Source: Candidatus Latescibacterota bacterium
GTDB lineage: Bacteria > Latescibacterota > UBA2968 > UBA8231
Length of the DNA stretch: 64,000 nt
Assembly (NCBI GenBank): GCA_964291625.2
Contig: OZ220089.1
Location: 4,480,001-4,544,000, forward strand
Direction: 5' to 3'
The first letter of the stretch is position 1, and each line of letters begins with the position of its first letter. Shown piece after piece: positions 55,606 through 64,000 of the stretch. The position numbers were made by a program, and so were the translations under genes. The notes below the pieces were generated by a model that had not been told where the DNA came from, did not search any database, and saw nothing but the letters and a program-made list of their open reading frames with translations.

Positions 55606-57125
55606 ACCGGCTCGCCCTCCCCCTCCTCCTGGCCCTGGTGCCAGCGGCCCCGGCGGCGGCCGTGGAAGTGCCGCTGCCGTCGCGTCCCGTCACCCTCGAC
55701 GGCGACCTGCGAGAGTGGGGGGAGGCCGCCTGGATCCCGGTCGAGCCCGCCGCCGACGGGGTCGGGCTGCGGGGTGTCTTCGCCGACGCTCTCGACCACG
55801 AGGCGGTGGTCCTCGTGCAGTGGGACGCCCGCCACCTCTACGTGGCCGCGGCGGTCCACGACGACACCCTCGACGCCGGCCGGGTCCCGCCCGCCGAGCG
55901 CGAGTGGCACGGGCCCGCCGGCGAGCGTAAGGACCGCATGTTCTACTACGACCACATGAAGCTCTTCGTCCGCGAGCCCGGGGCCGACGCCGGCTACAAC
56001 CTGTGGCTCGCCCCTCCCGGCGGCGGCGAGGACGGCTCCCGCCCGTACTGGTGGGGCGGCCGCCAGCGCCGGGCGCCGGCGGAACGCCCGCCGGTGGAGG
56101 TGGCCTCCCGGGTGCGGGGCCGGGCGCGCAGCTTCGAGATGGCCATCCCCTGGACCTGGCTCGGCGCCTGGCCCCAGCCCGGCGACGAGTTCGACGCCCT
56201 CTTCCTCTTCGTCGACGCCGACCAGCCGGGACGGCCGGTGGGCGGCAAGATCGGCAGCGGCCGGGACCGCTGGATCTGGTGGCAGGGGAAGCTGGTGCTG
56301 CGCGGGAGTCCGGAGGGGCTGCGCCCGCGGCCGACCCCCGAGGACAAGGTCATGGAGAGACCGGTGGCGGTCGCCGCCGAAGAAGCCCTCGACCCGCGGG
56401 TGCGGCAGGCGATCGAGCGCTCGCGGCGGGTCGAAGCGGCGGCCGACACGGCGGCAGACGATCCGGCTCCCCGGGAGGCCTCCGCGCCGCCGGCCGCCCC
56501 CCGGACGACGGTGGCGGCCGCGGCGCCCGCCCCCGCGGCCGACGCGCCGTCGACGGGCGGCGGGACCGTCACGGCCGCCGGCGGCCAGGACGGCGGGCAG
56601 CTGTCGCTGCGGGCGCGCCTGAACCGCCAGCTCCTCGCCCGCCGGGCCGCCTCCCGGGCGCCGGACTGGATTCGCCGGCTGGAGCGCAGCCCCGGGCTCT
56701 CGGAGGCCCAGGTCGACTCCTACTACACCGTCCTGCGCCGGCACCTGCAGCGCATCGTCGTCGGCAAGCTCAGCGTCCGCGTCGACATCCTCGTCGTCGA
56801 CATGGCCGCCGCCGCCGGCGGCGGCCGCATCGAGGCGCGGCGGTTCCTGGTGGACCTGCTGAGGAACCTGGAAGGCCGGGAGGACGAGGAGGCCCTGGCC
56901 TGGTACGCCCGGGCCGCCGAGAGCCTCGATCTGCAGGCCGGAGCCGTGCGGGCCTTCGTGGAGGCCCTCGGCTCCCGCAGCCGCAGGATCTTCGAGGAGC
57001 GGCGGGCGTCGACCTCCGAAGAGCTGTTGCGCAAGGCCGCCGGCGAGGCCGACCTGTCCCCGCCCCAGGCGCGGCAGCTCCTGGGAGCCCTGGCGCGGAT
57101 CGAAGGCGGGATCGTCGGCTGGTGA
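55602..57125 (+). CDS. Secreted CBM9-like sugar-binding protein with Ala/Pro linker and helical C-domain
   Basis: Signal peptide; 'TLDGDL.EW','WD..HLYVAA.V.DD','FEMAIPW'. Confidence 0.65.
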   Translation: MNRLALPLLLALVPAAPAAAVEVPLPSRPVTLDGDLREWGEAAWIPVEPAADGVGLRGVFADALDHEAVVLVQWDARHLYVAAAVHDDTLDAGRVPPAEREWHGPAGERKDRMFYYDHMKLFVREPGADAGYNLWLAPPGGGEDGSRPYWWGGRQRRAPAERPPVEVASRVRGRARSFEMAIPWTWLGAWPQPGDEFDALFLFVDADQPGRPVGGKIGSGRDRWIWWQGKLVLRGSPEGLRPRPTPEDKVMERPVAVAAEEALDPRVRQAIERSRRVEAAADTAADDPAPREASAPPAAPRTTVAAAAPAPAADAPSTGGGTVTAAGGQDGGQLSLRARLNRQLLARRAASRAPDWIRRLERSPGLSEAQVDSYYTVLRRHLQRIVVGKLSVRVDILVVDMAAAAGGGRIEARRFLVDLLRNLEGREDEEALAWYARAAESLDLQAGAVRAFVEALGSRSRRIFEERRASTSEELLRKAAGEADLSPPQARQLLGALARIEGGIVGW

Positions 57126-57163
57126 GCGCCCGGGGCGGAGAAACCGCGCACTCGAGGAGAGGC

Positions 57164-58794
<1,631 letters not shown>

Positions 58795-58798
<4 letters not shown>

Positions 58799-59247
58799 TC
58801 GGAAGTCCCGCCGAAGGCCGGGTGGAGCAGATCCTCCTCTACCCCGAGCGCCGGGGGCCGGCCCGGGAGTGCGAGGAGGCGGTCGCCGTGGCCGGCGTGG
58901 GGCTGGCGGGGGATCACCGCCGCAACCCGTCCCGCGCCGTCACCCTGCTCTCCGTCGAGGCCTGGGAGGAGGCGATGGCGGCGGTGGGCGCCGACCTGCC
59001 GCCCCGGGCGAGGCGCGCCAACCTCGTGGTCCGCGGCCTCGACCTGGGTTCGCTCGTCGGCCGCAGGCTGCGCATCGGCGGGGCCGAGGTGGCCGTGCGG
59101 GGCGAGACGGTGCCCTGCGAGCGGATGGACCTGCAGCGCGCCGGCCTGCAGGAAGCGCTGAGGCCGGCCATGCGCGGCGGCGTCTTCGGCCCCGTGGAGC
59201 GCAGCGGACCCATCCGGCTCGGCGATGCGGTCTCCGTCGTGGAGTGA
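58795..59247 (+). CDS. MOSC domain protein
   Basis: 'GLAGD','RAVTL','RRANLVV.G','PC.RM','RGG.F..V...G.I..GD'. Confidence 0.85.
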
Positions 59248-59251
59248 GGGT

Positions 59252-59280
59252 TTGACATTCTCCGGCAAGGGCGGCATACT
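59252..59280 (+). promoter_or_regulatory. Sigma70-type promoter of the thrS leader
   Basis: TTGACA (59252-57), 17-bp spacer, CATACT (59275-80). Confidence 0.85.
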
Positions 59281-59317
59281 AGATCGCATCGCAGCCATGA
59301 CCGAAGGAGCCACCTGC

Positions 59318-59440
59318 ATGTCCCGGGAGAAGACGACGGCGGACGGAGCATCGCGCCGCGAGACCACCACCACCCCCGGGACGACCACGCCCGTCACGGG
59401 TACCCGTGACCGACATCCGACGGTGGACCCTCCGGGATAA
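59318..59440 (+). CDS. Threonine-rich leader peptide (40 aa, 12 Thr) of the thrS attenuator
   Basis: RBS AAGGAG (59304-09); MSREKTTADGASRRETTTTPGTTTPVTGTRDRHPTVDPPG*. Confidence 0.8.
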   Translation: MSREKTTADGASRRETTTTPGTTTPVTGTRDRHPTVDPPG

Positions 59441-59468
59441 GCGATTCCCGACCGAAGACTTCCGAGAG

Positions 59469-59506
59469 AGCCCGCTGTCGAATCCGACCGGCAGCGGGCT
59501 TTTCTC
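59469..59506 (+). terminator. Intrinsic terminator (attenuator) upstream of thrS
   Basis: Stem AGCCCGCTGTCG/CGGCAGCGGGCT, 8-nt loop, followed by TTTCTC. Confidence 0.82.
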
Positions 59507-59526
59507 ATGACCCACAGGAGCAGGGA

Positions 59527-61449
59527 GTGAAGATCCGGATCCGCGAACAGGAGGTGCTGGAGCACGAGGGGGGCGGCCACCTCAAGGAGATCCTCCTCGA
59601 GCACGACCGCAAGCTGCTGCGGGAGTTCGTCGCCGCCCGCCGGGGGGAGGAGTGGGTCGACTTCCACACGGAGCTCGAGGCCTCCGACGAGGTCGAGCTC
59701 GTCCCCTGGGAGGCCGACGAGGCGGCGTGGGTCTACCGCCACAGCCTGTCCCACGTCATGGCCCAGGCCGTGCGGCGGCTCTTCCCCGAGGCGCGGCTGG
59801 CCATCGGACCGGCCATCGACGACGGGTTCTACTACGACTTCGACGTGCCCGAGCCCTTCAGCGCCGAGGACCTGGGCCGCATCGAGAAGGAGATGAAGCG
59901 GGTGGTCCGCCAGAACCACCGCTTCGAGCGCGAGGAGGTCAGCCGCGACGAGGCCCGGGACCGCCTCCGGGACGAGCCCTACAAGCTGGAGATCCTCGAC
60001 GAGTTGGAGGACGACGAGTCCCTCACCTTCTACCGCGACGGCGACTTCGTCGACCTCTGCCGCGGCCCCCACGTGCTGAGCACGGGACAGGTCCGCCACT
60101 ACAAGCTGCTCAGCGTGGCCGGCGCCTACTGGCGCGGCGACGAGGGCAACAAGATGCTGCAGCGCATCTACGGCACCGCCTTCGCCAGCCGCGAGGCCCT
60201 CGACGGCCACCTGCGCATGCTGGAGGAGGCGAAGAAGCGGGACCACCGCCGCCTGGGGCGCGAGCTGGAGCTGTTCTTCTTCGACGACGAGGTCGGCCCC
60301 GGCCTGCCCCTGTGGCAGCCGAAGGGGACGGTCCTGATCGAGGAGCTGGAACGGCTGGCGAAGGAGACCGAGCGCGAGGCCGGGTACCTGCAGGTGCGCA
60401 CCCCCCACATCTGCAAGGACTCGATGTTCGTGCGCAGCGGCCACCTGCCCTACTACGCCGAGTCGATGTTCCCGCCCATGGAGATGGAGGGGGTGAAGTA
60501 CTACCTCAAGCCGATGAACTGCCCCCACCACCACAAGGTGTTCGCCTCGGCGCCGCGCAGCTACCGCGACCTGCCCCTGCGCCTGGCCGAGTACGGGACC
60601 TGCTACCGCTACGAGCAGTCGGGGGAGCTCTTCGGGCTGATGCGGGTGCGCTCGATGCAGATGAACGACGCCCACATCTACTGCACCCTCGACCAGTTCG
60701 AGGAGGAGTTCCTCGCCGTCTGCCGCATGTACCTCGGCTACTTCGAGCTCTTCGGCATCGACAAGTACGTCATGCGCCTCAGCACCCACGACCCGGCGGA
60801 TCTCGGGAAGAAGTACGTCGACGAGCCGCAGCTGTGGCTGGAGACCGAGGAGAGGGTGCGCCGCGCCCTGGCCAACGGCGGCATCAACCACGTCGAGGTG
60901 GCGGGGGAGGCGGCCTTCTACGGCCCCAAGATCGACGTCGAGGTCTGGAGCGCCATCGGCCGCGAGTTCTCGATCGCCACCAACCAGGTCGACTTCGCGG
61001 TGCCGGCCCGCTACGGCCTCGCCTACACCAGCGCCGAGGGCGCGGAGGAGACGCCGATCTGCATCCACCGGGCGCCGCTGGGTACCCACGAGCGCACCAT
61101 CGGCTTCCTGATCGAGCACTACGCCGGCGCCTTCCCCACGTGGCTGGCGCCGGTGCAGGCGGTGACGCTGCCCATCGCCGAGCGCCACGGGGAGTACGCC
61201 GAGACGGTCCGTCAGGCCCTGGCCGCCGCGGGTGTCCGTGTCGAGCTGCAGGCCGATCAGAGCCTGAACTACCGCATCCGGGCGGCGCAGAAGCAGAAGG
61301 TCCCGTACATGCTGGTCCTCGGCGACCGCGAGGTCGAGGACGGCAAGGCGGCCGTGCGTCTGCGCAGCGGCGAGAACCTCGATCCCATGGCGGTGGACGA
61401 GGCGGTGGCCCTCATCGCTGGCCGCATCGCCTCGCGGGCCCCGGAATAG
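59527..61449 (+). CDS. thrS: Threonine--tRNA ligase
   Basis: 'RHSLSHVMAQA','GPAIDDGFYYDF','DLCRGPH','RDHRRLG','KPMNCP','YRYE.SG.L.GL.RVR','AFYGPKID'. Confidence 0.98.
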   Translation: MKIRIREQEVLEHEGGGHLKEILLEHDRKLLREFVAARRGEEWVDFHTELEASDEVELVPWEADEAAWVYRHSLSHVMAQAVRRLFPEARLAIGPAIDDGFYYDFDVPEPFSAEDLGRIEKEMKRVVRQNHRFEREEVSRDEARDRLRDEPYKLEILDELEDDESLTFYRDGDFVDLCRGPHVLSTGQVRHYKLLSVAGAYWRGDEGNKMLQRIYGTAFASREALDGHLRMLEEAKKRDHRRLGRELELFFFDDEVGPGLPLWQPKGTVLIEELERLAKETEREAGYLQVRTPHICKDSMFVRSGHLPYYAESMFPPMEMEGVKYYLKPMNCPHHHKVFASAPRSYRDLPLRLAEYGTCYRYEQSGELFGLMRVRSMQMNDAHIYCTLDQFEEEFLAVCRMYLGYFELFGIDKYVMRLSTHDPADLGKKYVDEPQLWLETEERVRRALANGGINHVEVAGEAAFYGPKIDVEVWSAIGREFSIATNQVDFAVPARYGLAYTSAEGAEETPICIHRAPLGTHERTIGFLIEHYAGAFPTWLAPVQAVTLPIAERHGEYAETVRQALAAAGVRVELQADQSLNYRIRAAQKQKVPYMLVLGDREVEDGKAAVRLRSGENLDPMAVDEAVALIAGRIASRAPE

Positions 61450-61451
61450 CC

Positions 61452-62144
61452 GTGTGGAAGGGGCTGCACCGCCAGGCCCGGATCCTGTGGCGTTTCCGCT
61501 TTCACCTGCTCTGTGCCGCCGCCGCCCTGCTGTTGTGGGATACCTTCTGGATCAAGCCCTTCCGGGTCTTCGTGGTCATGGTCCACGAGATGTGCCACGC
61601 CGTCGCCGCCCTGGTCACGGGGGGAGAGGTCCTGGAGATGCGCACCGCCTGGGCCGAGCACGGCTACACCCTGTCCCGGGGCGGCTGGCCGGTGGTCATC
61701 GTGTCGGCCGGGTACCTGGGCTCGGCCCTGCTCGGCGCGGCGCTGATCTGGTCGGGGGTGCTGCCGCAACTGCAGCGGCTGGCCCTGCTCCTGATCGGGG
61801 CCGCGACCCTGGGCATGACCCTGGCCTTCACCCCCGCGGGCGGGATCGACTTCGCCTTCGGCATCGCCGGGGGCCTGGCGCTGATCTGCACGGCCATGTA
61901 CTCGGCGCGGTCCGGGTCGGCCGGGGCGGTGTGGCTGGGGGTGATGCTCTGCCTCTACAGCCTCCACGACTTCCGCACCGACCTGTGGCTCTTCGCCGAG
62001 CGCACCGACGCCGGCATCCTGGCGGCGCACCTCGGCCTGCCGTGGCTGGCCTATCCCATCGCCGCCGCCTGGGTGTGGCTGTCCTTGTGGGGGATGTACC
62101 GGGCCATGGGGTCGCTGGTGAAGCACGAGGCCTCCCAAACCTGA
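61452..62144 (+). CDS. M50B-family membrane metallopeptidase
   Basis: 'VHEMCHA..A..TGG','AGYLG','TDA..LA'; hydrophobic. Confidence 0.8.
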   Translation: MWKGLHRQARILWRFRFHLLCAAAALLLWDTFWIKPFRVFVVMVHEMCHAVAALVTGGEVLEMRTAWAEHGYTLSRGGWPVVIVSAGYLGSALLGAALIWSGVLPQLQRLALLLIGAATLGMTLAFTPAGGIDFAFGIAGGLALICTAMYSARSGSAGAVWLGVMLCLYSLHDFRTDLWLFAERTDAGILAAHLGLPWLAYPIAAAWVWLSLWGMYRAMGSLVKHEASQT

Positions 62145-62161
62145 AGGAGATCCGATAAGCC

Positions 62162-63946
62162 ATGCGCATGAGCCGTCTCTTCAGCCAGACCCTGCGGGAG
62201 GCCCCGGCCGACGCCCAGGTGGCCAGCCACGTCCTGCTGCTGCGGGCCGGGTACGTCCGCCAACTCGCCAGCGGCATCTTCAGCTACCTGCCCCTGGCGC
62301 ACAGGGCCCTGTCCAGGATCGAGCAGATCATCCGCGAGGAGATGGATGCCATCGGCGGCCAGGAGATCAAGATGCCCGTGGTCCACGCCGCCGACGTGTG
62401 GAAGGCCTCCGGCCGCTACGAGGAGTACGACGAGTCCCTCACCCGCTTCCACGACCGCCACGGCCGCGACATGGTCCTGGCCACCACCCACGAGGAGATC
62501 GTCGCCGACCTGGCCAGCCGCGAGATCCGCTCGTACCGGCAGCTGCCCGCCATGGTCTACCACTTCCAGACCAAGTGGCGCGACGAGGCGCGGCCCACCT
62601 CCGGACTGCTGCGGGTGCGCGAGTTCACCATGAAGGACTCGTACTCCCTCGACGCCTCGCAGGAGGGGCTGGAGGCCCAGTACCGGGCCCACTACCAGGC
62701 CTACTTCAACATCTTCCGCCGCTGCGGCCTGCCGGTACGGGCGGTGCGCTCCGACGTGGGCATGATGGGCGGCTCCGCGGCCCACGAGTTCATGTACCTC
62801 AAGGAGGTGGGGGAGAACACCCTGGCCCTGTGCGGCGCCTGCGGGTACGCGGCCAACACCGAGGTCGCCGCTTTCGCCAAGGCGGCGGCCGCCGAGGAGG
62901 AGCCCCTGCCCCTGGAGAAGGTGGCCACCCCCGGAGCGGCGACCATCGCCGAGCTGGCCGCCTTCCTCGACATCCCCGCGAGCCGCACGGCGAAGGCGGT
63001 CTTCCTGGTGGGCCGCTTCAAGGCCGCCGAGGACGGCCGGGAGTCCGGGGAGCGCCTCGTCCTGGCGGTGATCCGCGGCGACCTCGAGGTCAACGAGATC
63101 AAGCTCGCCAACGCCGCCGGCGCCCTGTCGCTGAGACCGGCCCACGACGAGGAGATCGCCGCCGCCGGGGCGGTGGCCGGCTACGCCTCGCCCTTGGGGC
63201 TGTCGGAGGACACCCTGGTGGTGGCCGACGACTCCGTGGTCTCGTCGCCGAACCTGGTCTCCGGCGCCAACGAGGCCGGGTACCACGTGCGCAACGTCAA
63301 CCACGGCCGCGACTGGCAGGCCGCCGTCGTCGACGACATCGCCCTCGCCGAGGCGGGCCACGCCTGCGCCGACTGCGGCGCCGCCCTGGGCATCGTCCGC
63401 GGCGTCGAGGTGGGCAACATCTTCCAGCTCGGCACCCGCTACACCGACGCCCTGGGCGCCTCCTTCCTCGACGAGCAGGGCCGGGAGCGGCCCGTCATCA
63501 TGGGTTCCTACGGCATCGGCGTGGGCCGGCTCCTCGCCTGCGCCGTCGAGGAGCACCACGACGACAACGGCCTCTCCCTGCCGGTGACCGTCGCTCCGTA
63601 CCAGGTGCACCTCGTCTCCCTGGCCAAGAGCGAGGGGCCGGCCCGGTCCGCCGCCGAGGCCCTCTACGATGAGCTGACCGCGGCCGGCGTCGAGGTCCTC
63701 TACGACGACCGCCCCGAGAACCCCGGCGTCAAGTTCAACGACGCCGACCTCATCGGCTGTCCGGTGCGGGTCACCGTCGGCGACCGCGGGTTGAAGAAGG
63801 GGACTCTCGAGGTCAAGCTGCGCGGCGCCGCCGGCCGGGGCGAGGAGGTGCCCGTGGCCGAGACCTCCGCCCGCGTCCAGGAAGAGCTGGCGGCGCTGCG
63901 GCGGCGGATCGAGGAGAGCGTCGGCCCGGTGGAGTACGCCGACTGA
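62162..63946 (+). CDS. proS: Proline--tRNA ligase (prokaryotic type with editing insertion)
   Basis: 'TLRE.PADA..SH.LLLRAG','THEE','K.RDE.RP..GL.R.REF.MKD.YS','EVGNIFQLG','MGSYGIGV.R'. Confidence 0.98.
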   Translation: MRMSRLFSQTLREAPADAQVASHVLLLRAGYVRQLASGIFSYLPLAHRALSRIEQIIREEMDAIGGQEIKMPVVHAADVWKASGRYEEYDESLTRFHDRHGRDMVLATTHEEIVADLASREIRSYRQLPAMVYHFQTKWRDEARPTSGLLRVREFTMKDSYSLDASQEGLEAQYRAHYQAYFNIFRRCGLPVRAVRSDVGMMGGSAAHEFMYLKEVGENTLALCGACGYAANTEVAAFAKAAAAEEEPLPLEKVATPGAATIAELAAFLDIPASRTAKAVFLVGRFKAAEDGRESGERLVLAVIRGDLEVNEIKLANAAGALSLRPAHDEEIAAAGAVAGYASPLGLSEDTLVVADDSVVSSPNLVSGANEAGYHVRNVNHGRDWQAAVVDDIALAEAGHACADCGAALGIVRGVEVGNIFQLGTRYTDALGASFLDEQGRERPVIMGSYGIGVGRLLACAVEEHHDDNGLSLPVTVAPYQVHLVSLAKSEGPARSAAEALYDELTAAGVEVLYDDRPENPGVKFNDADLIGCPVRVTVGDRGLKKGTLEVKLRGAAGRGEEVPVAETSARVQEELAALRRRIEESVGPVEYAD

Positions 63947-64000
63947 CGCCCGCGGGCTAATTCCGCTCCGCCTCCGGAACCTCGCTGCGCTGGGCGGGCT

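What the first reader, a model, noticed from the sequence alone, without database searches (positions are those of the whole stretch)
59252..59526. Complete Thr-leader-peptide transcription attenuator controlling thrS
Seen: a consensus sigma70 promoter, an RBS, a 40-codon ORF with 12 Thr codons (runs of 4 and 3), and a strong intrinsic terminator at 59469-59503. The leader's 3' end (ATCCGACGGTGGACCCTCC, 59415-59433) is complementary, with G-U pairs and a few mismatches, to the terminator's 5' arm and flank (~59461-59483), giving mutually exclusive 2:3 and 3:4 hairpins. A perfect palindrome GTCACGGGTACCCGTGAC (59393-59410) lies just upstream. Established: thrS is controlled by translational autorepression in E. 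coli and by T-boxes in Firmicutes, whereas leader-peptide attenuation is classic for thr biosynthesis (thrL) and pheST. Inference: stalling on the Thr codons frees segment 2 and allows read-through, so this lineage appears to sense Thr-tRNA charging at thrS with a thrL-like device.
Basis: partly seen in the sequence, partly recalled or inferred. Interest (0 to 1): 0.82.

Follow-up and report, generated by a model that had tools for sequence, protein, structure and literature searches.

The report
Threonine leader-peptide attenuator before thrS
A short threonine-rich test gene wired to a switchable transcription stop sits in front of the threonyl-tRNA synthetase gene of this uncultured bacterium, a known type of control that here belongs to a reused family of similar switches.

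Summary
Window 59252-59526 holds a promoter-like site, a Shine-Dalgarno-led 40-codon ORF (59318-59440) with 12 Thr codons, a perfect 18-nt palindrome, a 12-bp terminator hairpin with a U-tract, and thrS 26 nt downstream.

Before the terminator's 3' arm is made, the RNA folds so that 59418-26 pairs with the 5' arm (59472-80).

I examined 48 genomes of the same order, probably Candidatus Latescibacterota.
- 47 keep a terminator before thrS.
- 32 have a uORF with at least 3 consecutive Thr; runs reach 12.
- Run length varies in frame.

The terminator shows compensatory changes. One antiterminator pair covaries with the arm.

I read it as a ribosome-mediated, Thr-tRNA-sensing transcription attenuator of thrS (confidence 0.85). 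No experiment supports it, and the RNA-library contigs were inconclusive.

It is not a new principle. pheST is the classic synthetase case (recalled), and a Thr leader before thrS was reported in Streptomyces lividans (PMC8079986).

The new points are the phylum and a shared core. The same antiterminator/terminator core also precedes aspS, metG, hisI, a class-II-synthetase-like gene and ilvB-like genes in related genomes. In each case the leader codons match the downstream gene.

The parts
59252..59280 (+). Promoter-like site: TTGACA, 17-nt spacer, CATACT
   Evidence: 10 of 12 matches and the only site in 57000-64000 (shuffles give 0.2). It starts 5 nt after the stop codon of the upstream MOSC-domain gene.
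59306..59309 (+). Shine-Dalgarno GGAG of the leader ORF
   Evidence: Read from the sequence, 8 nt before the ATG at 59318. The same stretch is present in G004 and G006.
59318..59440 (+). Leader ORF: 40 codons plus TAA, with 12 Thr codons
   Evidence: It is the only uORF ending within 110 nt of the terminator. Thr-rich uORFs stand at the same place in relatives.
59363..59374 (+). Thr run 1 (4 x ACC), the proposed stall site
   Evidence: One ACC is missing in G004 and G006 and in an RNA-library contig (table 4), so the length changes in frame.
59381..59389 (+). Thr run 2 (ACG ACC ACG)
59393..59410 (+). Perfect 18-nt palindrome forming a hairpin inside the leader ORF. Possibly an RNA polymerase pause hairpin (inferred).
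   Evidence: Kept in the genus. The second pair reads U-A in G000, C.A in G001/G003 and C-G in G009; the change in G009 alters the peptide from D to G.
59418..59426 (+). Region 2, the 5' strand of the antiterminator (CGACGGUGG)
   Evidence: it pairs with 59472-80 in the nascent RNA. The motif CGAYGGYGG is kept next to the leader stop in relatives; 79.5% of cells are paired, and one pair covaries (C-G 15, U-A 7, U-G 7).
59469..59480 (+). Region 3, the 5' arm of the terminator, shared with the antiterminator
59489..59506 (+). Region 4, the 3' arm of the terminator (59489-59500), and the U-tract TTTTCTC (59500-06)
   Evidence: 91.8% of cells are paired, 6 of 12 pairs change on both sides, and slid controls give 35-54%.
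59516..59520 (+). Shine-Dalgarno AGGAG of thrS
   Evidence: Read from the sequence, 6 nt before the GTG at 59527.
59527..61449 (+). thrS, threonine--tRNA ligase, the regulated gene
   Evidence: TIGR00418 at 650.5 bits (cut-off 383.65). It is the only full-length thrS match in the genome.

Best explanation
This is a ribosome-mediated (leader-peptide) transcription attenuator that sets thrS expression by the supply of charged tRNA-Thr.

Proposed sequence of events:
- Transcription starts at the promoter at 59252-80, and a ribosome translates the 40-codon leader.
- When Thr-tRNA is plentiful, the ribosome runs to the TAA at 59438-40. There it covers region 2 (59418-26). The 5' arm (59469-80) then pairs with the 3' arm (59489-59500) and RNA polymerase stops at the U-tract, 26 nt before thrS.
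- When Thr-tRNA is scarce, the ribosome stalls on the Thr codons (59363-89). Region 2 stays free and pairs with the 5' arm as it emerges. The terminator cannot form and thrS is transcribed.

More ThrRS then restores charging, which closes a feedback loop.

Shown here: the parts, the alternative folds and their conservation. Inferred: translation of the leader, stalling, and regulated read-through. The palindrome at 59393-410 may pause RNA polymerase to couple it to the ribosome; that is also inferred.
For: Anatomy: all parts are in order and properly spaced. Only 26 nt separate the terminator from the thrS start, and no other promoter-like site is found.

Folding:
- With the ribosome stalled at run 2 and RNA made up to 59488, the minimum-energy fold has 59418-26 paired with 59472-80 (-25.8 kcal/mol).
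- With the ribosome at the stop codon, the fold is the terminator (-31.0 kcal/mol).

Relatives: I examined 48 genomes of the order. These were 16 from the relatives search, 26 picked by the terminator pattern and 6 fetched.
- 47 have a terminator hairpin within 200 nt upstream of thrS.
- 32 have a uORF with a Thr run of at least 3, and 36 have at least 4 Thr in 8 codons.
- Thr is the most enriched residue in 33 of 47.

Leader peptides differ between genera but share Thr runs:
- TSTPTTTPP in part of the window's genus
- TATTTTTTTTTTMCAG in genus g14
- MAFPTTTTTT in G021
- TTWTTTT in G020
- PLPTTTTPP in G014

In g14 the run varies from 3 to 12 Thr while the flanking peptide and the stop codon stay in frame.

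Structure counts:
- Terminator: 91.8% of cells paired and 6 of 12 pairs with compensatory change.
- Antiterminator: 79.5% of cells paired and one covarying pair.
- A stalled-ribosome model sequesters the 5' arm more than a ribosome-at-stop model in 44 of 47 genomes, and beats 95% of shuffles in 23 of 46.

Specificity: the same core RNA precedes aspS, metG, hisI and ilvB-like genes in relatives, with Asn/Asp, Met, His or Val/Leu leaders. This argues against a ThrRS-specific protein operator.

No T-box or Thr_leader match was found.
Against: There is no experimental or transcript evidence.
- RNA-library contigs cover 59189-59449 once, at depth 4, starting upstream of the promoter.
- No contig bridges the leader and thrS. 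Contigs cannot show RNA ends, and DNA may be present in such libraries.

In the window's own sequence, antiterminator complementarity is not better than chance for this G+C-rich composition: 31 of 100 shuffles do as well.

The terminator is far more stable than the antiterminator helix, which has 9 pairs, 2 of them G-U. The switch therefore has to be kinetic.

Several genomes do not fit.
- 15 of 47 genomes with a terminator lack a Thr run of at least 3; examples are G010, G011, G012, G016, G024, G044, G045 and G047.
- G007 has Thr-to-Ser changes and no evident in-frame start.
- G019 has the hairpin straight after a promoter, with no leader.
- G015 has no attenuator.

Without a ribosome, the nascent fold pairs the 5' arm with an upstream second copy of the motif (59334-42). 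That would not give the classical termination expected without translation.

28 of the 76 genomes of the order were not examined.
Confidence: 0.85

Rival explanations
1. The hairpin is a constitutive terminator or insulator that ends the upstream MOSC-gene transcript or a short non-coding RNA. The Thr-rich uORF is not a sensor, and thrS is expressed by basal read-through or from an unrecognised promoter.
For: G019 has the same hairpin directly after a promoter-like site, without a leader. 15 of 47 genomes lack a clear Thr run. The one RNA-library contig starts upstream of the promoter, at 59189.
Against: Only 26 nt lie between the U-tract and the thrS start, and no promoter-like site is there. 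Thr is the top residue in 33 of 47 leaders, and run lengths change in frame. Region 2 is kept next to the leader stop codon and covaries with the arm.
Confidence: 0.06
2. The conserved hairpin and region 2 are bound by a trans-acting factor that decides termination, and the uORF is secondary. Candidates are ThrRS itself as in E. coli, uncharged tRNA as in T-boxes, or another RNA-binding protein.
For: The stem sequence CCCRCUGUCG / CGRCRGYGGG is unusually conserved across a whole class. It occurs in 83 of 168 genomes of the phylum, always in related families. That is more than base pairing alone requires. Region 2 contains UGGN, which recalls the T-box bulge; that resemblance is recalled, not tested.
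Against: No T-box match in the region at E up to 10, or in the genome. The base after UGG varies between genomes, and the 'ACC' expected in a T-box is absent. The same core precedes genes for other amino acids, with matching leader codons, so a ThrRS-specific operator is unlikely. Hairpin loops are variable and carry no conserved Thr anticodon: the palindrome loop reads GGUACC in G000 and GGAAUU in G008.
Confidence: 0.05
3. The leader acts after transcription, or through Rho. Its translation might alter thrS mRNA stability, thrS translation initiation or Rho access, rather than the choice between two hairpins.
For: The antiterminator is weak in G000 compared with shuffles. A general role of leader genes in re-initiation has been proposed (PMC4833913, abstract and passages).
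Against: A 12-bp G+C-rich hairpin with a U-tract is a standard intrinsic terminator. The leader stop is 86 nt from the thrS start, too far for re-initiation. The terminator is conserved and shows covariation.
Confidence: 0.03
4. The uORF encodes a functional small Thr-rich peptide, and its position beside thrS is incidental.
For: Part of the peptide (TGTRD) is conserved within the genus.
Against: That stretch coincides with the RNA palindrome, and a pairing-restoring change alters the peptide in G009. Peptides are not conserved between genera apart from the Thr runs. Run lengths vary from 3 to 12.
Confidence: 0.01

Closest known systems
thrL leader upstream of thrS in Streptomyces lividans TK24 (Droste et al. 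2021, PMC8079986; passages read)
   Same: A short ORF with Thr codons directly upstream of the threonine--tRNA ligase gene, interpreted as Thr-dependent attenuation. The same paper lists leaders before leuS, trpS and alaS.
   Different: The Streptomyces leader has 18 residues and only 2 Thr. It is transcribed leaderless, and the authors found one hairpin but no U-rich stretch, so termination was called unclear. Here there are 12 Thr (up to 12 in a row in relatives), a Shine-Dalgarno site, a clear intrinsic terminator and an identifiable antiterminator. The phylum is different. No sequence comparison was made.
E. coli pheST attenuator (pheM leader); recalled, not read here
   Same: A leader-peptide transcription attenuator that controls an aminoacyl-tRNA synthetase operon through codons of the cognate amino acid. 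The feedback logic is the same.
   Different: It senses Phe rather than Thr, it is proteobacterial, and the sequence is unrelated.
E. coli thr operon attenuator (thrL; Rfam Thr_leader RF00506)
   Same: A Thr-codon-rich leader peptide with mutually exclusive terminator and antiterminator hairpins.
   Different: It controls the biosynthetic genes thrABC and also senses Ile (recalled). RF00506 has no match in the region or the genome.
T-box riboswitch of thrS in Bacillus (Rfam RF00230)
   Same: It senses tRNA-Thr charging and switches between a terminator and an antiterminator in front of thrS.
   Different: A T-box binds uncharged tRNA directly and needs no translation. There is no T-box match in the region (E up to 10) or in the genome.
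E. coli thrS translational operator (ThrRS autorepression); mentioned in PMC2965389, details recalled
   Same: A feedback loop on ThrRS level through the thrS leader RNA.
   Different: There the protein binds tRNA-like stem-loops and blocks ribosome binding. Here no conserved anticodon-like loop is seen, and the same RNA core serves genes for other amino acids.

Membership tests
Ribosome-mediated (leader-peptide) transcription attenuators | A short ORF with its own start signals between the promoter and the regulated gene | tested here: met
   ATG at 59318 with GGAG 8 nt upstream; 40 codons. The promoter-like site lies at 59252-80.
Ribosome-mediated (leader-peptide) transcription attenuators | Enrichment of codons for the amino acid related to the regulated gene | tested here: met
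   12 of 40 codons are Thr, in runs of 4 and 3. Thr is the top residue in 33 of 47 related leaders. 32 of 48 genomes have a run of at least 3.
Ribosome-mediated (leader-peptide) transcription attenuators | An intrinsic terminator between the leader ORF and the gene | tested here: met
   A 12-bp stem with a U-tract at 59469-59506, -27.3 kcal/mol. Across relatives 91.8% of cells are paired and 6 of 12 pairs show compensatory change.
Ribosome-mediated (leader-peptide) transcription attenuators | An alternative antiterminator that uses the terminator's 5' arm | tested here: inconclusive
   The antiterminator is the minimum-energy fold of the nascent RNA, it is conserved, and one pair covaries. In G000 alone, however, it is not better than 31 of 100 shuffles. 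The alignment register is also poor for genus g14.
Ribosome-mediated (leader-peptide) transcription attenuators | A leader stop codon placed so that a terminating ribosome masks the antiterminator strand, while a ribosome stalled at the regulatory codons leaves it free | tested here: met
   Region 2 ends 11 nt before the stop codon, and the last run codon lies 29 nt upstream of region 2. The modelled stall state sequesters the arm more than the stop state in 44 of 47 genomes. The ribosome footprint of about 13 nt is an assumption.
Ribosome-mediated (leader-peptide) transcription attenuators | Read-through that responds to charged-tRNA supply | not testable with these tools
   The RNA-library contigs were inconclusive.
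Rfam Thr_leader (RF00506) | A match to the covariance model | tested here: not met
   No match in 58800-59900 at E up to 10 or in the genome.
T-box riboswitch (RF00230) | A match to the covariance model (specifier loop and T-box sequence) | tested here: not met
   No match in the region or in the genome, which is 95% complete.

The most novel reading that the evidence does not exclude
The thrS attenuator is one copy of a homologous attenuator cassette peculiar to one class of (probably) Latescibacterota.

The fixed core consists of:
- an antiterminator strand CGRYGGYGG;
- a spacer of about 45 nt;
- a terminator CCCRCUGUCG...CGRCRGYGGG followed by a U-run.

This core has been copied in front of at least five other kinds of genes (aspS, metG, hisI, a class-II-synthetase-like gene and ilvB-like genes). 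It seems to have been re-aimed simply by rewriting the codon run of the leader: Thr, Asn/Asp, Met, His or Val/Leu.

Such a family would be a translation-based counterpart of the modular T-box family, in a lineage where no T-box was found. Because (ACC)n, (CAC)n and (CCA)n are the same repeat read in three frames, a His leader could become a Thr leader by a frameshift; that is speculation.
Probability: 0.6. Interest if true: 0.65.

Novelty: new member of a known kind. Interest (0 to 1): 0.48.

Why it matters
How bacteria outside the model phyla match aminoacyl-tRNA synthetase levels to demand is poorly known. This finding points to a clear, testable answer for an uncultured phylum that shows no T-box: thrS seems to be read out by a Thr-codon leader peptide.

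The variable length of the Thr run (3 to 12 codons) offers a natural series for asking how run length tunes an attenuator.

The reuse of one terminator/antiterminator core before genes for several amino acids would show attenuators spreading by duplication and codon rewriting. That process was suggested earlier for "hopping" attenuators (PMC2965389, passages).

In practice, these short ORFs should be annotated as leader peptides, not as hypothetical proteins.

Tried and rejected
- Rfam scan of 58800-59900 at E up to 10: only two chance-level hits, mir-9193 and DUF2693-FD on the terminator hairpin at 17.9 bits against a cut-off of 44.5. Rejected.
- T-box and Thr_leader searches of the whole genome: none.
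- The consensus terminator scan did not list the hairpin. I relied on folding and on my own scan.
- RNA evidence. One search for runs and one laying of four metatranscriptome runs kept as contigs. A single contig of run X19 covers 59189-59449 at depth 4, with one ACC missing. No contig covers 59450-59509 beyond a trace, and none joins the leader to thrS. Contigs cannot show RNA ends or strand, so this neither supports nor refutes termination.
- Shuffle test of the antiterminator in G000: not significant, 31 of 100.
- Reverse-complement control for Thr enrichment. It is dominated by Val (25 of 47), which is the mirror image of the same ACN repeats. It is therefore not an independent control.
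- Looked for the same exact core elsewhere in the own genome: only the thrS copy.
- Looked for leaders before other synthetase genes of G000.
  - Found only before an aspS-like gene.
  - A terminator without a Tyr-rich leader stands before a tyrS-like gene.
  - None detected before the class-I I/L/V/M-type genes, proS, the other class-II genes or the trpS-like gene.
  - Families for Glu/Gln, Phe, Ala, Arg and Cys synthetases were not searched.
- ThrRS is only mildly Thr-poor: 19 of 640 residues, the 8.6th percentile of 1263 long ORFs. Not used as evidence.
- Earlier notes of the scan near this place: none.
- Lopatovskaya et al. 2010 (Mol Biol 44:128) could not be read because it is not held. 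It may already list thrS attenuators in other phyla.
- Searches for print precedent: nothing on attenuation in Latescibacterota.
- A script error (index out of range) was fixed.

Full report
**The observation**

- A promoter-like TTGACA-17-CATACT lies at 59252-59280. It is the only such site in 57000-64000, where shuffles give 0.2.
- It sits 5 nt after the stop codon of a MOSC-domain gene (PF03473).
- GGAG at 59306-09 precedes an ATG at 59318.
- The ORF 59318-59440 encodes MSREKTTADGASRRETTTTPGTTTPVTGTRDRHPTVDPPG, with 12 Thr in 40 codons. The runs are 4 x ACC (59363-74) and ACG ACC ACG (59381-89).
- A perfect 18-nt palindrome follows at 59393-59410.
- The terminator has a 12-bp stem (59469-80 with 59489-59500), an 8-nt loop and TTTTCTC. 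It folds at -27.3 kcal/mol alone.
- thrS starts with GTG at 59527, behind AGGAG. Its product scores 650 bits against TIGR00418, cut-off 384.
- It is the only full-length thrS match in the genome.

**Alternative folds**

Three states were folded.
- RNA made only up to the terminator loop (59488), with a ribosome parked on the second Thr run. The minimum-energy fold pairs CGACGGUGG (59418-26) with CCGCUGUCG (59472-80), at -25.8 kcal/mol for the folded stretch.
- Ribosome at the stop codon. Region 2 is covered and the fold is the terminator (-31.0).
- Whole RNA. The terminator wins thermodynamically (-44.5), so the switch must be kinetic, as in classical attenuators.

Without any ribosome, the Thr codons (CCACC) pair with GGUGG of region 2, which is a 1:2 pairing. 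In that fold, however, the 5' arm is taken by a second upstream copy of the motif (59334-42). That does not fit the textbook scheme.

In G000 alone the complementarity is not exceptional for this composition: 31 of 100 shuffles do as well.

**Lineage**

The closest named records are titled Candidatus Latescibacterota (L039, 96% identical ThrRS; also L032, L033 and L038). One near-identical record is titled Gemmatimonadaceae.

**Relatives**

thrS was found in 41 of 41 related genomes. I examined the thrS upstream region in 48 genomes of the same order. These were 16 from that search, 26 brought in by a terminator pattern, and 6 fetched. The sample is therefore partly selected by the terminator, and 28 of the order's 76 genomes were not looked at.
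- 47 of 48 have a terminator hairpin within 200 nt of thrS.
- 32 have a uORF with at least 3 consecutive Thr.
- 36 have at least 4 Thr in 8 codons.
- Thr is the most enriched residue in 33 of 47.

The leader peptides are unrelated between genera except for the Thr runs:
- ...RRMTSTPTTTPPATGTRDG... in the other half of the window's genus;
- MISAMLTVASA..SGFPSGPTATTTTTTTTTTMCAG in genus g14;
- MAFPTTTTTTRTTAAILSGAMVDY in G021;
- ...TTWTTTTPPTGTPTG... in G020;
- ...PLPTTTTPP... in G014.

In g14 the run ranges from 3 to 12 Thr while the flanks and the stop stay in frame. G004 and G006 have one ACC fewer than the window, and so does an RNA-library contig.

**Exceptions**
- 15 of 47 leaders have no run of at least 3. 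Examples are G010, G011, G012, G016, G024, G044, G045 and G047.
- G007 has Thr-to-Ser changes and no evident in-frame start.
- G019 has the hairpin right after a promoter, with no leader.
- G015 has no attenuator.

**Structure support**

The counts below come from a 34-sequence alignment.
- Terminator: 91.8% of cells are paired, against 35-54% when the partner is slid. 6 of 12 pairs change on both sides, and 0 of 500 shuffles reach the covariation score.
- Antiterminator: 79.5% of cells are paired, against 26-69% when slid. One pair covaries with the purine of the 5' arm (C-G 15, U-A 7, U-G 7).

The g14 rows are not aligned in register there. In g14 the strand CGACGG lies directly after the stop codon.

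A stalled-ribosome model sequesters the 5' arm more than a ribosome-at-stop model in 44 of 47 genomes. It beats 95% of shuffles in 23 of 46.

The palindrome is kept within the genus. Its second pair goes from U-A through C.A to C-G, and the last change alters the peptide from D to G. That points to selection on the RNA.

**A shared core**

The terminator stem is strikingly conserved in sequence. A pattern for it hits 41 of 76 genomes of the order, once each, and 83 of 168 genomes of the phylum. By family the counts are f1 40/75, f2 22/31, f3 3/3, f4 16/22 and f7 1/1; the other nine families give 0 of 35. The reversed-pattern control gives none.

Outside the window's order the hits are not at thrS. 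With a region-2-like strand about 45 nt upstream, the core precedes the following genes.

| Downstream gene | Genome (locus) | Leader |
|---|---|---|
| aspS (PF00152 with GAD domain) | G011 (L119) | ...FSNSDSNNNP... |
| metG | G030 (L149) | MGMSMRD... |
| TPP-enzyme (ilvB-like) gene, in tandem pairs | G028, G026 (L150, L161) | Val/Leu-rich |
| hisI (PRA-CH) | G032, G025 (L167, L168) | ...THHTHH... |
| class-II-synthetase-like gene | G153 (L166) | ...MHHH... |
| methyltransferase | several genomes of f2 and f4 | His-rich |

The 3' part of one such leader (G028, L160...GGUGGACCCUCCGG...) is nearly identical to that of the window.

Region 2 is read in different frames in the ilv and thrS leaders, so the conservation is at the RNA level.

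This argues against a ThrRS-specific operator. It suggests a family of related attenuators re-aimed by their codon runs.

**The window's own genome**

The exact core occurs only at thrS. Other candidate leader-peptide attenuators with different terminators stand before a cysH-like gene (seven Cys), a trpE-like gene (WWW) and an aspS-like gene (Asn/Asp-rich). No T-box was found.

**Comparison with what is known**

The mechanism is the classical one. For synthetase genes, pheST of E. coli is the textbook case (recalled).

A Thr leader before thrS (MKRVRPFLETTPGFVPAR, 2 Thr, termination called unclear) was reported in Streptomyces lividans, together with leaders before leuS, trpS and alaS (PMC8079986, passages).

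A 2010 survey of attenuation at synthetase operons exists, but I could not read it.

My searches found nothing on attenuation in Latescibacterota.

**Verdict**

The element is a new member of a known kind, in a phylum where it had not been described. Its comparative support is unusually clear, and the shared-core family is an added point of interest. Regulation itself remains to be shown.

Noticed in passing
L119 (G011), minus strand, upstream of the gene at 2-1498: The same terminator/antiterminator core precedes an aspS gene (PF00152, GAD and OB domains). Its leader, MTSRHKHAAHAFSNSDSNNNPAIRARWRWP, is rich in Asn and Asp codons. This looks like an Asn/Asp-sensing attenuator of a possibly non-discriminating AspRS.
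   Followed up: partly
L149 (G030), minus strand, upstream of the gene at 3-1367: The same core precedes metG (PF09334). The leader I read by eye, MGMSMRDRVSAAVEYPLDYRT, has 3 Met in its first 5 codons.
   Followed up: partly
L150 (G028) 1501-1823 and L161 (G026) 214-578: Two tandem copies of the core, each behind a Val/Leu-rich leader (for example ...LLGVLTGVVCLVVVLVLRV...), precede a TPP-enzyme gene resembling acetolactate synthase (ilvB).
   Followed up: partly
L153-L159, L165-L170 (families f2 and f4): His-rich leaders (for example ...TATHHTHHTLFCPTCSAVEMS) with the same core precede several genes: hisI (PRA-CH; L167, L168), a class-II-synthetase-like gene (L166), a PhzF-family gene (L165) and a methyltransferase (L153, L169). 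In several genomes the hairpin matches the pattern on both strands.
   Followed up: partly
G000 contig C1, + strand, near 4,279,010 (outside the window): A uORF with seven consecutive Cys codons and a 13-bp terminator with 8 U stand 10 nt before a gene whose N-terminus looks like cysH (my reading, not tested). This is a candidate Cys attenuator.
   Followed up: no
G000 contig C1, minus strand, near 1,706,100 (outside the window): A uORF containing RRWWWRFW and a 13-bp terminator stand before a gene whose N-terminus looks like trpE (my reading, not tested). This is a candidate Trp attenuator.
   Followed up: no
G000 contig C1, + strand, about 3,779,000 (outside the window): The leader MTMTTRQNAFTQDNPTNSGDNNPPAPSRVF and a terminator stand before an aspS-like gene (PF00152 match). 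The genome has a second aspS-like gene without such a leader.
   Followed up: partly
window 59363-59374; L120-L141: The Thr-run length is polymorphic and always changes in frame. One ACC is missing in G004, G006 and a metatranscriptome contig. Genus g14 has 3 to 12 Thr. This may tune sensitivity.
   Followed up: partly
L004 (G007), L017/L116 (G019), L146 (G015), L033: Apparent decay or loss of the attenuator in four relatives. G007 has Thr-to-Ser changes and no in-frame start. G019 has the hairpin directly after a promoter, plus a partial duplication of its 3' arm. G015 has only a promoter. In L033 the thrS gene (82% identical) has an A+T-rich upstream region without any attenuator.
   Followed up: no
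window 59334-59342: A second copy of the region-2 motif (CGACGGCGG) lies near the start of the leader ORF. It can also pair with the terminator's 5' arm in the ribosome-free fold. It is present in G004 and G006 but not in the rest of the genus.
   Followed up: no
window 59363-59374 and g14 leaders: (ACC)n read in the other two frames gives (CAC)n, His, or (CCA)n, Pro. Alternative-frame uORFs rich in His, Tyr and Asp are visible in G004, G006 and g14. A frameshift could convert a His leader into a Thr leader; this is speculation.
   Followed up: no
window 59527-61449: ThrRS has 19 Thr in 640 residues (2.97%), the 8.6th percentile of 1263 long ORFs of the genome. It is only mildly Thr-poor.
   Followed up: yes
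window 57182-59247 and 61454-63946: Neighbouring genes are an acetolactate-synthase-like TPP enzyme (NF006187, 868 bits), a MOSC-domain protein and proS (NF006625, 700 bits). The ORF 61454-62158 between thrS and proS has no Pfam match in the frame tested, and an overlapping frame was not tested.
   Followed up: partly
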